Positions 34,082 through 34,870 of a stretch of DNA of 64,000 nucleotides are shown one piece after another. Each line of letters starts with the position of its first letter. Position 1 is the first letter of the stretch. The position numbers were made by a program, and so were the translations under genes. The notes beneath the pieces were generated by a model. It saw only the letters and a program-made list of their open reading frames with translations, was not told where the DNA came from and searched no databases. The stretch lies in NCBI GenBank assembly GCA_000146465.1, contig CP001944.1. The stretch is one strand, 5' to 3'.

Positions 34082-34870
34082 ATAAGTACCGAGATATGAG
34101 CTCCAAGAGACTCTTGCGAGTGGGTCAACATCGAAAATAAAGAGCTCTGAAGTTTCTGGAGACAAGGAGTATGCTGTCAAGATGATAAGAAAAGAAGACA
34201 TTCCTTTGAAGCTCTTTTTGAGAGAAGTCAAAATGCATAGATTGATGAAACATCCAAATATAGTTGAATTTGTTGACTCGTACGAAGACTAGGATGGATG
34301 TTTTGTTGTAATAAGGTTAGGATGCCAGGAGATGGGGAGCATAATCCAGGCGGGTGTAGGATTGAGCTCTGCCCTGGCCCATTTCTACTTCAAACAATTG
34401 ATTTCTGCAGCGAGGTATCTGCATGGAAAGGAAATATGTCATCGAGATGTCAAACCAGAGAACATGCTTATTGACGCAAGTGGAAACCTCTCGCTATCGG
34501 ATTTCGTCTTTTCAACCTTATTTATACAGAAGGAGAAAGAAGAAGACTTCGGTCGTTTGTAAAAGGTTTAGAGTATATGGCCCGAAGTTTTTGAGAGAGC
34601 TTGCAGATATGTGGTCCTGCGGAATAAGTCTTATTGTGTTTCTAACCGGCTCATATCCATGGGGCAAAGCATCTGGTCGGACAAGAAATTCTCTGGATTT
34701 ATATTGATGAAGGACTACGTCTAGGTACACAAAGGCATAGAAAACTCGGAAAAGAGATTTATAATGAAAATGGTGACTAAAGAAGGCAGCCGCTGGACTG
34801 GGCCGATAGCTCTGAAAGATCCATGACTTATGCAGCCAAACACACTCCTCGATGAATCGGATCTCTATAA
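34082..34870 (+). pseudogene. Chk1-like Ser/Thr protein kinase pseudogene (frameshifts, in-frame stops, degenerate G-loop and DFG)
   Basis: Three frames together reconstruct a kinase colinear with Chk1. Subdomains I-III: '...ASGSTSKIKSSEVSGDKEYAVKMIRKEDIPLKLFLREVKMHRLMKHPNIVEFVDSYED*'. Subdomains VI-VII: 'RYLHGKEICHRDVKPENMLIDASGNLSLSDFVFS' (DFG becomes DFV). Subdomain IX: 'DMWSCGISLIVFLTGSYPWG'. Disabling lesions include a stop TAG near 34290, a frameshift near 34560 and another stop near 34700. The G-loop GxGxxG is degraded to ASGSTS. No intact initiator is in frame. Confidence 0.65.

What the first reader, a model, noticed from the sequence alone, without database searches (positions are those of the whole stretch)
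34082..34870. Chk1-like checkpoint kinase pseudogene in an otherwise streamlined genome
Three reading frames together spell a complete kinase colinear with Chk1 (subdomains I to IX: AVK, HPNIV, HRDVKPEN, DFG becoming DFV, DMWSCGI). The gene is broken by at least two in-frame stops and two frameshifts, has lost its initiator, and its Gly-loop is degraded to ASGSTS. Pseudogenes are rare in genomes this compact, so this looks like a recent, ongoing loss of a DNA-damage checkpoint kinase or of a paralog. It lies next to the homeobox pair and is flanked by unusually long non-coding DNA.
Basis: seen in the sequence. Interest (0 to 1): 0.55.

Follow-up and report, generated by a model that had tools for sequence, protein, structure and literature searches.

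The report
Dead Chk1 checkpoint kinase gene relic
This is the decayed, non-functional remnant of the only Chk1 DNA-damage checkpoint kinase gene of the tiny-genomed human parasite Encephalitozoon intestinalis, whose sister species still keep the gene intact at the same spot; it is a real but ordinary kind of event (gene death) with a modestly interesting consequence.

Summary
The window is E. intestinalis ATCC 50506 chromosome III (NC_014417:32001-96000).

Window 34086-35296 (+) is colinear over its whole length with ECU03_0620, the published single Chk1 orthologue of E. cuniculi. It sits in the same gene order: UCH, Yip1, homeobox, homeobox, Chk1, CaMK. E. cuniculi (414 aa), E. hellem (412 aa) and two unnamed relatives have intact genes there.

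The E. intestinalis copy carries these lesions:
- ATG changed to GTA
- four in-frame stops
- eight frame-breaking deletions
- DFG changed to DFV
- changes at 9 of 52 sites that are invariant in 11 intact Chk1 proteins

The same sequence or ORF fragments occur in five assemblies of four isolates and in an independent read-set assembly, so this is not an assembly error.

The "degraded" Gly-loop (ASGSTS) is ancestral. The "long non-coding flank" is mostly the rest of the relic.

The locus is a unitary pseudogene. MicroAnnot (2024) flagged 267 bp of it as "Pseudogene" in a supplementary table. GenBank and RefSeq still carry fragments as proteins. I found no paper naming it Chk1 or discussing the loss.

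Not shown here: that no other Chk1 copy exists elsewhere in the genome.

Interest is modest. Known kind, new member.

The parts
34086..35296 (+). Whole relic of the Chk1 orthologue: kinase domain, S/TQ linker and C-terminal regulatory domain. It is 1211 bp, against 1239-1245 bp in intact orthologues.
   Evidence: Four-species nucleotide alignment and lesion map. tblastn E=1.8e-84. Twelve-protein alignment.
34086..34088 (+). Lost initiator: ATG in E. cuniculi, E. hellem and E. romaleae is GTA here. A TAA lies immediately upstream in frame, and the next in-frame ATG is at 34182.
34290..34292 (+). In-frame stop TAG at codon 69. The orthologues have TGC, AGG or AGA.
34440..34463 (+). Catalytic-loop remnant HRDVKPEN.
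34500..34508 (+). DFG changed to DFV (GGG to GTC). This Gly is invariant in all 11 intact Chk1 sequences compared.
34528..34600 (+). Three frame-breaking deletions in the activation segment and APE region: -1 after 34528, -2 after 34580 (removes the APE Ala codon), and -14 after 34599 (removes ..DYDGS).
34671..34727 (+). A -1 deletion after 34671, an in-frame stop TAG at 34722-34724, and an in-frame -3 deletion after 34726.
34824..34826 (+). In-frame stop TGA replacing the invariant Trp of DPW at the end of the kinase domain.
34907..34908 (+). A -2 frame-breaking deletion.
34972..34983 (+). Remnant SSQP. S-Q is invariant and the Pro nearly invariant in all Chk1 compared, and the site aligns with the SFSQP of vertebrate Chk1. 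Its equivalence to the ATR target Ser345 is from my own knowledge.
35029..35030 (+). A -1 frame-breaking deletion.
35139..35141 (+). In-frame stop TAG at codon 360.
35211..35256 (+). Remnant of the C-terminal Chk1 motif GD..EF(E/K)KF, interrupted by a -2 deletion after 35220. A further -2 deletion follows 35254.
34423..34707 (+). A 94-aa ORF annotated as a protein in the 2010 genome (ADM11197.1 / XP_003072557.1, 'putative Ser/Thr protein kinase'). Only its last third is in the kinase frame, so it is an annotation artefact of the relic.
34332..34562 (+). A 76-aa ORF annotated as 'protein kinase domain-containing protein' in the telomere-to-telomere assembly and in the three 2025 isolate assemblies (UTX44864.1, KAL7346070.1, KAL7348057.1, KAL7350020.1). 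MicroAnnot 2024 lists NC_014417:66296-66562, which equals window 34296-34562, as 'Pseudogene'.
33758..34085 (.). Ancestral divergent spacer between the homeobox gene on the minus strand and Chk1. It has 77% mean column identity across five Encephalitozoon genomes, with long invariant blocks.
33416..33757 (-). Homeobox gene, the second of the pair and the upstream neighbour. Shown for context only.
35345..36517 (+). Intact 390-aa kinase annotated as 'calmodulin-dependent protein kinase', the downstream neighbour. It is 85-87% identical in protein to its orthologues and was used as the functional control. Shown for context only.

Best explanation
Window 34086-35296 is a unitary, in-situ, non-processed pseudogene. 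It is the dead remnant of the E. intestinalis orthologue of ECU03_0620, the only Chk1-type checkpoint kinase described in Encephalitozoon.

The ancestral gene encoded about 412 aa: an N-terminal CAMKL kinase domain, a linker with TQ/SQ sites, and a C-terminal regulatory domain.

Shown here:
- The initiator is gone, and the frame is broken by 4 stops and 8 frame-shifting deletions.
- Catalytic and universally conserved residues have mutated, so no Chk1 protein can be made.
- The relic is the same in all sequenced isolates.
- It is still 98% of full length, and its codon-position substitution pattern is only mildly relaxed.

Inferred:
- Inactivation happened late on the E. intestinalis branch. 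A rough estimate puts it within the last 10-20% of that branch.
- The sequence is decaying by small deletions and has no function of its own.
- E. intestinalis therefore lacks the ATR-to-Chk1 effector step. No Rad53/Chk2 orthologue was found in E. cuniculi either, so E. intestinalis probably has no canonical checkpoint effector kinase.
For: Homology: Pfam Pkinase E=1.2e-34. The best PDB match is human Chk1. The relic is colinear along its full length with intact orthologues, including the invariant TQP and SSQP sites and the GD..EF motif shared with insect and frog Chk1.

Orthology: gene order is identical (UCH, Yip1, HD, HD, Chk1, CaMK, hypothetical ORF, ribosomal S11, UBP, RNase HII, PFK) to E. 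cuniculi (414 aa intact), E. hellem (412 aa intact), a romaleae-like genome and an unnamed outgroup microsporidian. The E. cuniculi gene is CAD26208.1 = ECU03_0620 = UniProt Q8SSA8, 'CHK1 homolog'. It is published as the single Chk1 orthologue, with no Rad53 orthologue found (PMC2078597; PMC4280135).

Lesions: start loss, 4 stops, 8 frameshifts and DFG to DFV.

Not an artefact: sequence is 100% identical in ATCC 50603 over 9173 bp and in a Logan assembly of ERR13302946 over 2063 bp. The ORF fragments are present in the 2010 assembly, the telomere-to-telomere assembly and three isolate assemblies.

Relaxed constraint: 9 of 52 sites invariant in 11 intact Chk1 are changed here, against 0 of 52 in E. 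cuniculi, E. hellem and the romaleae-like genome. All 9 indels are deletions.

Recency: nucleotide identity to orthologues is 62-65%, against 68-76% among the intact genes. The identity profile along the gene still follows the ancestral pattern. Lineage-specific change by codon position is 0.18/0.14/0.42, against 0.14/0.11/0.34 for E. cuniculi.

Independent flag: MicroAnnot Table S2 lists NC_014417:66296-66562 as 'Pseudogene'.
Against: I could not search the whole E. intestinalis genome, so a second intact Chk1 elsewhere is not formally excluded. The profile search returned no E. intestinalis protein, but it also missed the E. romaleae fragment, so its recall is imperfect.

There are no expression data.

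Near-full-length retention in a deletion-prone, very compact genome could hint at some constraint on the DNA, such as spacing or read-through transcription into the downstream kinase gene. Recency explains it equally well.

The codon-position signal of relaxation on the E. intestinalis branch is weak compared with E. cuniculi. The timing estimate is therefore rough.
Confidence: 0.9

Rival explanations
1. This is the dead copy of a duplicated gene, and an intact Chk1 is encoded elsewhere in the E. intestinalis genome, so the checkpoint is unaffected.
For: The whole genome could not be scanned here. The word-indexed protein search has imperfect recall (one search missed P0001).
Against: The relic occupies the exact syntenic slot of the single-copy gene of E. 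cuniculi and E. hellem. Kinome surveys find one Chk1 in E. cuniculi. [quoted passage not shown] No E. intestinalis protein appears among the Chk1-level hits. Within the 64-kb window, the only other kinase hits are the CaMK neighbour and a CK1-like gene.
Confidence: 0.04
2. The gene is intact in the organism, and the stops and frameshifts are sequencing or assembly errors.
For: None beyond the general possibility. Single frameshifts in microsporidian assemblies are sometimes errors (PMC10815200).
Against: There are thirteen independent disabling lesions plus substitutions at invariant residues. The sequence is identical in independently sequenced isolates and read sets: Illumina at 300x or more for ATCC 50603, a Logan assembly of ERR13302946, the telomere-to-telomere assembly and the 2010 assembly.
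Confidence: 0.01
3. The DNA or a fragment of it has been retained for a new role. Candidates are a short kinase-derived peptide (the 76- or 94-aa ORFs), a non-coding transcript, or a spacer or promoter function for the flanking homeobox and CaMK genes.
For: The relic has lost only 28 bp of about 1240 in a genome with typical intergenic spacers of 40-150 bp. Databases annotate the 76- and 94-aa ORFs as proteins. The upstream spacer is strongly conserved.
Against: The ORFs lack the ATP-binding lobe, the activation segment or both. The 94-aa ORF is mostly out of frame, and DFG is mutated. The identity profile simply mirrors ancestral coding constraint, minus a few percent. No Rfam family matches. 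The conserved spacer lies outside the relic and is equally conserved where the gene is intact.
Confidence: 0.05

Closest known systems
E. cuniculi ECU03_0620 (CAD26208.1, UniProt Q8SSA8, 'probable serine/threonine-protein kinase CHK1 homolog') and E. hellem XP_003886931.1
   Same: They sit at the same chromosomal position between the homeobox pair and the CaMK gene. They have the same domain order and motifs: LASGST.K, HRD.KPEN, the TQP and SSQP sites, and GD..EF.KF. The frame-corrected translation of the relic is 51-54% identical to them.
   Different: Those genes are intact 414- and 412-aa ORFs. The E. intestinalis copy has no start codon, 4 stops, 8 frameshifts and DFV in place of DFG.
E. 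romaleae SJ-2008 'CHK1-like Ser/Thr protein kinase' AFN82672.1 (224 aa) plus the adjacent 201-aa ORF
   Same: It is the same locus, and the reading frame is also broken there. It was the best database hit to the relic, at 56% identity.
   Different: It has only one lesion, a unique +1 base, which is absent from a relative that is 92% identical over the locus. It could be incipient decay or an error. None of the E. intestinalis lesions is shared, so the two events are independent.
Chk1 absence in other reduced eukaryotes: Enterocytozoon bieneusi (PMC4280135) and most metamonads (PMC8516963)
   Same: In each case the Chk1 effector kinase is lost from a reduced eukaryote, a streamlined parasite in the case of E. 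bieneusi. In some metamonads, ATR or ATM is retained.
   Different: Those are clean absences inferred from gene catalogues. Here the loss is caught in progress as a full-length relic, with intact orthologues in congeners, so the event can be dated and polarised.
Pseudogenes of the horizontally acquired folate and purine genes in E. romaleae (Pombert et al. 2012 PNAS; from my own knowledge, paper not held)
   Same: These are lineage-specific pseudogenisation within the genus Encephalitozoon, leaving recognisable relics in a compact genome.
   Different: Those are recently acquired accessory metabolic genes. This one is an ancient core cell-cycle checkpoint kinase.

Membership tests
Chk1 (CAMKL/CHK1) orthologue group | An N-terminal Ser/Thr protein-kinase domain of CAMKL type. 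| tested here: met
   Pfam Pkinase scores E=1.2e-34 over profile positions 1-204 of 263. The top PDB matches for the relic itself are human Chk1. With the profile of intact orthologues, Chk1, MARK and CIPK kinase domains score about equally, so the kinase domain alone only places it in CAMKL.
Chk1 (CAMKL/CHK1) orthologue group | A C-terminal regulatory domain with the conserved Chk1 motifs: the R of the TRF-like motif, and GD..EF(K/E)(R/K)F. | tested here: met
   In the 12-sequence alignment, G380, E384 and F385 are invariant and D381 is nearly invariant from microsporidia to insect grp and frog Chk1. The relic keeps GDA-EFEKF, interrupted by a -2 deletion. The nearly invariant Arg is mutated to Ile in the relic. 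Animal Chk1 sequences align over 94-95% of the query, whereas CIPK and SnRK hits cover only about 47-74% of it.
Chk1 (CAMKL/CHK1) orthologue group | S/TQ sites in the linker. Their equivalence to the ATR target sites Ser317 and Ser345 of human Chk1 is from my own knowledge. | tested here: met
   In TQP, Q and P are invariant. In SSQP, S and Q are invariant and the Pro nearly so. Both are retained in the relic at HLTQP and at 34972-34983.
Chk1 (CAMKL/CHK1) orthologue group | Orthology to an accepted Chk1, by position and by phylogeny. | tested here: met
   Positional orthology to ECU03_0620 / CAD26208.1 is shown. That protein is placed as the Chk1 orthologue in published kinome trees (PMC2078597, PMC4280135). 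I built no tree of my own.
Chk1 (CAMKL/CHK1) orthologue group | Checkpoint kinase activity: phosphorylation by ATR, and action on Cdc25 or Wee1. | not testable with these tools
   No biochemical data exist for any microsporidian Chk1. The relic cannot encode a protein.
Unitary (in-situ, non-processed) pseudogene | Full-length homology to a functional gene, together with disabling lesions. | tested here: met
   Start loss, 4 in-frame stops and 8 frame-breaking deletions across 34086-35296.
Unitary (in-situ, non-processed) pseudogene | The lesions are real, that is, reproducible in independent sequence data. | tested here: met
   Sequence is identical in ATCC 50603 and in the Logan assembly of ERR13302946. 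The ORF fragments occur in five assemblies from four isolates.
Unitary (in-situ, non-processed) pseudogene | Ancestral chromosomal position, with no retroposition hallmarks. | tested here: met
   Synteny and the conserved upstream spacer are shared with four other genomes.
Unitary (in-situ, non-processed) pseudogene | No functional copy elsewhere in the genome. | tested here: inconclusive
   There is none in the 64-kb window, and no E. intestinalis protein appears among the Chk1-level hits.
Unitary (in-situ, non-processed) pseudogene | Relaxed selective constraint. | tested here: met
   Of 52 universally invariant residues, 9 are changed, against 0 of 52 in three intact congeners. Substitution at codon positions 1 and 2 is only modestly elevated, which fits recent inactivation.
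Unitary (in-situ, non-processed) pseudogene | No functional transcript or protein. | not testable with these tools
   No RNA-seq or proteomics access.

The most novel reading that the evidence does not exclude
E. intestinalis is a natural Chk1-null and Chk2-null eukaryote that still carries the upstream sensors reported for Encephalitozoonidae (9-1-1 clamp, Rad17, TopBP1, ATR). Loss of this effector kinase would then be recurrent and ongoing in the smallest eukaryotic genomes. Four observations point that way:
- the full-length relic in E. intestinalis;
- a single frameshift in E. romaleae;
- clean deletion, together with the neighbouring homeobox gene, in two Ordospora-lineage genomes;
- absence in E. 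bieneusi.

If true, ATR signalling in these parasites either works without Chk1 or the checkpoint is being dismantled piecemeal. That could bear on their high substitution rates.
Probability: 0.35. Interest if true: 0.55.

Novelty: new member of a known kind. Interest (0 to 1): 0.35.

Why it matters
Chk1 is the effector kinase of the ATR DNA-damage and replication checkpoint, and it is the only such kinase described in Encephalitozoon.

A 2022 study concluded that the 9-1-1/ATR pathway is functional in Encephalitozoonidae, without considering Chk1 (PMC9053307). This locus shows that in E. intestinalis the downstream kinase is dead, while congeners keep it. That sets up a clean natural comparison for asking whether these parasites still need the checkpoint.

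The locus is also a rare datable pseudogene in one of the most compact eukaryotic genomes. All 9 of its indels are deletions, so it is useful for estimating neutral indel and substitution patterns.

On the practical side, four or more public protein records are fragments of this relic and should be re-annotated as a pseudogene: XP_003072557.1 / ADM11197.1, UTX44864.1, and KAL7346070.1, KAL7348057.1 and KAL7350020.1. The two E. romaleae CDSs at this locus need checking.

Tried and rejected
- The first protein search, using the stitched relic, returned only the E. romaleae fragment as a close hit. This wrongly suggested that no intact orthologues exist. The gap was a recall limit of the word index: synteny look-ups and a profile search then found intact E. 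cuniculi and E. hellem genes.
- I considered that the relic might be a tandem duplicate of the downstream 390-aa kinase. Rejected: the two share only about 23-24% identity, and both genes exist side by side in all relatives.
- I considered the kinase hit at 63913-63999 as a possible second Chk1. Rejected: it is a CK1-like gene running off the end of the window.
- I considered the minus-strand 128-aa ORF at 34518-34904 as a possible overprinted gene. No public annotation calls it, and I did not pursue it.
- The apparent 1167-bp ORF-free gap at 3508-4674 is an artefact of my greedy ORF picking. A 453-aa ORF covers it.
- Rfam and tRNA scans of the window found nothing.
- Literature: Corradi 2010 Supplementary Data 2, the list of E. 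cuniculi genes absent from E. intestinalis, is not held. The paper I looked up as PMC3412028, which I believed to be Pombert 2012 PNAS, is not held. No paper was found for 'ECU03_0620'.
- I did not run structure prediction or the exhaustive representative search. Neither could decide the one open question, whether a second copy exists elsewhere in the genome.

Full report
**Source of the window.** Neighbouring ORFs are exact matches to E. intestinalis ATCC 50506 proteins ADM11193-ADM11201. Five CDS coordinates in MicroAnnot Table S2 equal window coordinates plus 32,000 (for example, NC_014417:68589-68903 equals window 36589-36903). The window is therefore E. intestinalis chromosome III, NC_014417:32001-96000. 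It is a typical microsporidian stretch: about 42% GC, with genes 40-150 bp apart.

**Observation.** A stitched translation hits Pfam Pkinase at E=1.2e-34, and its best solved relatives are human Chk1 kinase domains at about 1e-25. The region 33740-35344 is the largest ORF-free stretch in the window.

**Orthology.**
- Fetching the syntenic loci through the conserved downstream kinase gene shows the same gene order in E. cuniculi, E. hellem, E. romaleae, a romaleae-like genome from SRR23946965, and an unnamed more distant microsporidian from SRR21023573. That order is UCH, Yip1, homeobox, homeobox (minus strand), Chk1, CaMK, hypothetical ORF, ribosomal S11, UBP, RNase HII, PFK.
- The slot holds an intact 414-aa ORF in E. 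cuniculi, 412 aa in E. hellem, an intact ORF in the romaleae-like genome, and 402 aa in the outgroup.
- The E. cuniculi protein is CAD26208.1 = ECU03_0620 = UniProt Q8SSA8, 'CHK1 homolog'. Miranda-Saavedra et al. [quoted passage not shown] They list no Rad53/Cds1 orthologue (PMC2078597). Li et al. 2014 agree, and report Chk1 as lost from E. bieneusi (PMC4280135).
- A 12-protein alignment shows the full Chk1 architecture: kinase domain, TQP and SQP sites whose Q-P and S-Q residues are invariant, and the C-terminal GD..EF motif. The alignment included the relic, four other Encephalitozoon sequences, five other microsporidia, insect grp and frog Chk1. All these features are still legible in the relic.
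- With the profile of intact orthologues, kinase-domain-only comparison cannot separate Chk1 from MARK or CIPK. This is expected for CAMKL kinases, and a kinome-tree preprint proposes a common ancestry of CHK1 and CIPK. Membership therefore rests on full-length colinearity, the motifs, synteny and the published trees.

**Anatomy of the decay.** A four-species nucleotide alignment, read in the E. hellem frame, places the relic at 34086-35296 and gives these lesions:
- ATG changed to GTA at 34086-34088.
- In-frame stops at 34290 (TAG), 34722 (TAG), 34824 (TGA, replacing the DPW Trp) and 35139 (TAG).
- Frame-breaking deletions of 1, 2, 14, 1, 2, 1, 2 and 2 bp after 34528, 34580, 34599, 34671, 34907, 35029, 35220 and 35254.
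- One in-frame 3-bp deletion after 34726.

All nine indels are deletions, totalling 28 bp, so the relic keeps 98% of its original length. DFG is DFV (34500-34508).

Of 52 alignment sites invariant in the 11 intact Chk1 sequences, nine are changed in E. intestinalis. These include the DFG Gly, the APE Ala, the DPW Trp, the conserved Arg of the C-terminal motif, and a conserved Asp. E. cuniculi, E. hellem and the romaleae-like genome have none changed.

LASGST(S/A)K is the normal sequence in intact E. cuniculi, E. hellem and other microsporidian Chk1.

**Not an artefact.**
- The window is 100% identical over 9173 bp to the independently sequenced isolate ATCC 50603 (JBLUPK010000006.1; Illumina at about 300x).
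- It is 100% identical over 2063 bp (32832-34894) to a Logan assembly of run ERR13302946.
- The 76-aa fragment ORF occurs in the telomere-to-telomere assembly and in three isolate assemblies. The 94-aa fragment ORF, which spans four of the deletions, occurs in the 2010 assembly.

**Timing (inference).**
- Nucleotide identity of the relic to orthologues is 62-65%, against 68-76% among the intact genes. For the neighbouring CaMK gene, all pairs are 81-87%.
- The identity profile along the relic still mirrors ancestral constraint: the kinase domain is higher than the linker.
- Lineage-specific change at codon positions 1/2/3 is 0.18/0.14/0.42 for E. intestinalis, against 0.14/0.11/0.34 for E. cuniculi. 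Third positions still dominate.
- Four stops and nine indels in 1.2 kb suggest roughly 0.08 neutral substitutions per site. This is my own rough calculation, assuming that about 4% of random substitutions create stops. It amounts to a minor fraction of the E. intestinalis terminal branch.
- I therefore read the loss as recent relative to speciation, but fixed in all sequenced isolates.

**Flanks.** The upstream 328-bp spacer (33758-34085) is ancestral: it is 341 bp in E. cuniculi and 359 bp in E. hellem. It is better conserved (77% mean column identity, with long invariant blocks) than the Chk1 coding sequence. Presumably it carries divergent promoter signals for the homeobox gene and for Chk1. 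Downstream, what looked like non-coding DNA is the C-terminal half of the relic, and only 48 bp separate it from the CaMK start. The 'unusually long non-coding DNA' is thereby explained.

**What is already known.**
- GenBank and RefSeq carry fragments of the relic as proteins: ADM11197.1 / XP_003072557.1, 94 aa, 'putative Ser/Thr protein kinase'; and UTX44864.1, KAL7346070.1, KAL7348057.1 and KAL7350020.1, 76 aa, 'protein kinase domain-containing protein'.
- MicroAnnot (2024) lists NC_014417:66296-66562, equal to window 34296-34562, as its single additional 'Pseudogene' in E. intestinalis. The entry is only a coordinate in Table S2, and I found no mention of it in the passages of the main text I searched.
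- Corradi et al. 2010 mention 15 known-function E. cuniculi genes absent from E. intestinalis, and 'putative pseudogenes'. Their list is not held.
- The telomere-to-telomere paper and the 2025 isolate announcement do not mention the locus.
- The 2022 paper on the 9-1-1 clamp concludes that the ATR/9-1-1 pathway is functional in Encephalitozoonidae, and never mentions Chk1.
- I found no paper stating that E. intestinalis has lost Chk1.

**Wider pattern (partly followed up).**
- E. romaleae SJ-2008 has a single unique +1 base (CTACCCGTGG, against CT-ACCATGG in its close relative). It splits the gene into the annotated 224-aa 'CHK1-like' protein and a 201-aa ORF.
- E. romaleae also has two private changes at universally invariant sites, including SQP changed to SQT. 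This may be incipient decay or an assembly error.
- O. colligata, and an Ordospora-like genome about 85% identical to it in nucleotide sequence, lack both the second homeobox gene and Chk1 at this locus, with no detectable remnant. Whether Ordospora has Chk1 elsewhere is unknown.
- Together with the reported absence in E. bieneusi and in most metamonads, this suggests that Chk1 is repeatedly dispensable in reduced parasites.

**Verdict.** This is a genuine, well-supported unitary pseudogene of the Chk1 orthologue. The kind of feature is ordinary, and the locus has already been flagged as a pseudogene by coordinate. The identification as the sole checkpoint effector kinase, the complete lesion map, the polarity (intact in three congeners and an outgroup) and the possible recurrence of loss appear not to have been written up.

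The main untested step is a whole-genome search for a second copy.

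Noticed in passing
L002:5076-6315 (E. romaleae SJ-2008, CP003520.1 about 68.8-70.1 kb); frameshift at about L002:5664-5667: The E. romaleae Chk1 orthologue is split by a single unique +1 base into the annotated 224-aa 'CHK1-like' protein (AFN82672.1) and a 201-aa ORF with no recorded Pfam hit. A relative about 92% identical over the locus (Logan SRR23946965, L008) has an uninterrupted ORF. E. romaleae also has 2 private changes at 54 universally invariant sites, including SQP changed to SQT. This is either incipient pseudogenisation or an assembly error.
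   Followed up: partly
L005:4155-5001 (Ordospora colligata) and L010:3379-4001 (Ordospora-like JGI contig): Both Ordospora-lineage genomes lack the second homeobox gene and Chk1 between the first homeobox gene and the CaMK gene, and tblastn finds no remnant. The outgroup L009 and all Encephalitozoon genomes have both genes, so this is a clean lineage-specific deletion, or a relocation.
   Followed up: partly
window 33758-34085: The divergent spacer between the minus-strand homeobox gene and Chk1 shows 77% mean column identity over five Encephalitozoon genomes. It has long invariant blocks, for example TCCTATCATG.TTCATTTAGATT, TTTAAATTAAGC and AATTTACTATTG.TGGAAA. It is better conserved than the Chk1 coding sequence itself, and it remains conserved in E. 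intestinalis although one of its two flanking genes is dead.
   Followed up: partly
window 34107-34130, and alignment A2 columns about 30-45: All microsporidian Chk1 orthologues examined have a non-canonical glycine-rich loop in place of GxGxxG: LASGST(S/A)K in Encephalitozoon and two close relatives, with variants such as LATGSTGV or IADGDCAK in more distant species. Only the middle Gly is kept. This is a lineage trait, not decay.
   Followed up: yes
window 34332-34562 and 34423-34707: Public databases carry ORF fragments of the relic as real proteins: XP_003072557.1 / ADM11197.1 at 94 aa, and UTX44864.1, KAL7346070.1, KAL7348057.1 and KAL7350020.1 at 76 aa. The 94-aa ORF is mostly translated in the wrong frame. 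These records should be replaced by one pseudogene feature spanning 34086-35296.
   Followed up: yes
window 34528-35255: All nine indels that separate the relic from its intact orthologues are deletions (1-14 bp, 28 bp in total), and none is an insertion. This gives a small direct sample of deletion bias in neutrally evolving DNA of this genome.
   Followed up: partly
window about 63562-64000 (+): A casein-kinase-1-like gene (MTTEIRNIKLVQKIASGAFGEIF...HRDIKPDNF) starts here and runs off the end of the window. It overlaps a spurious 182-aa minus-strand ORF.
   Followed up: no
whole window: No tRNA gene and no Rfam family at gathering threshold in the 64 kb.
   Followed up: yes
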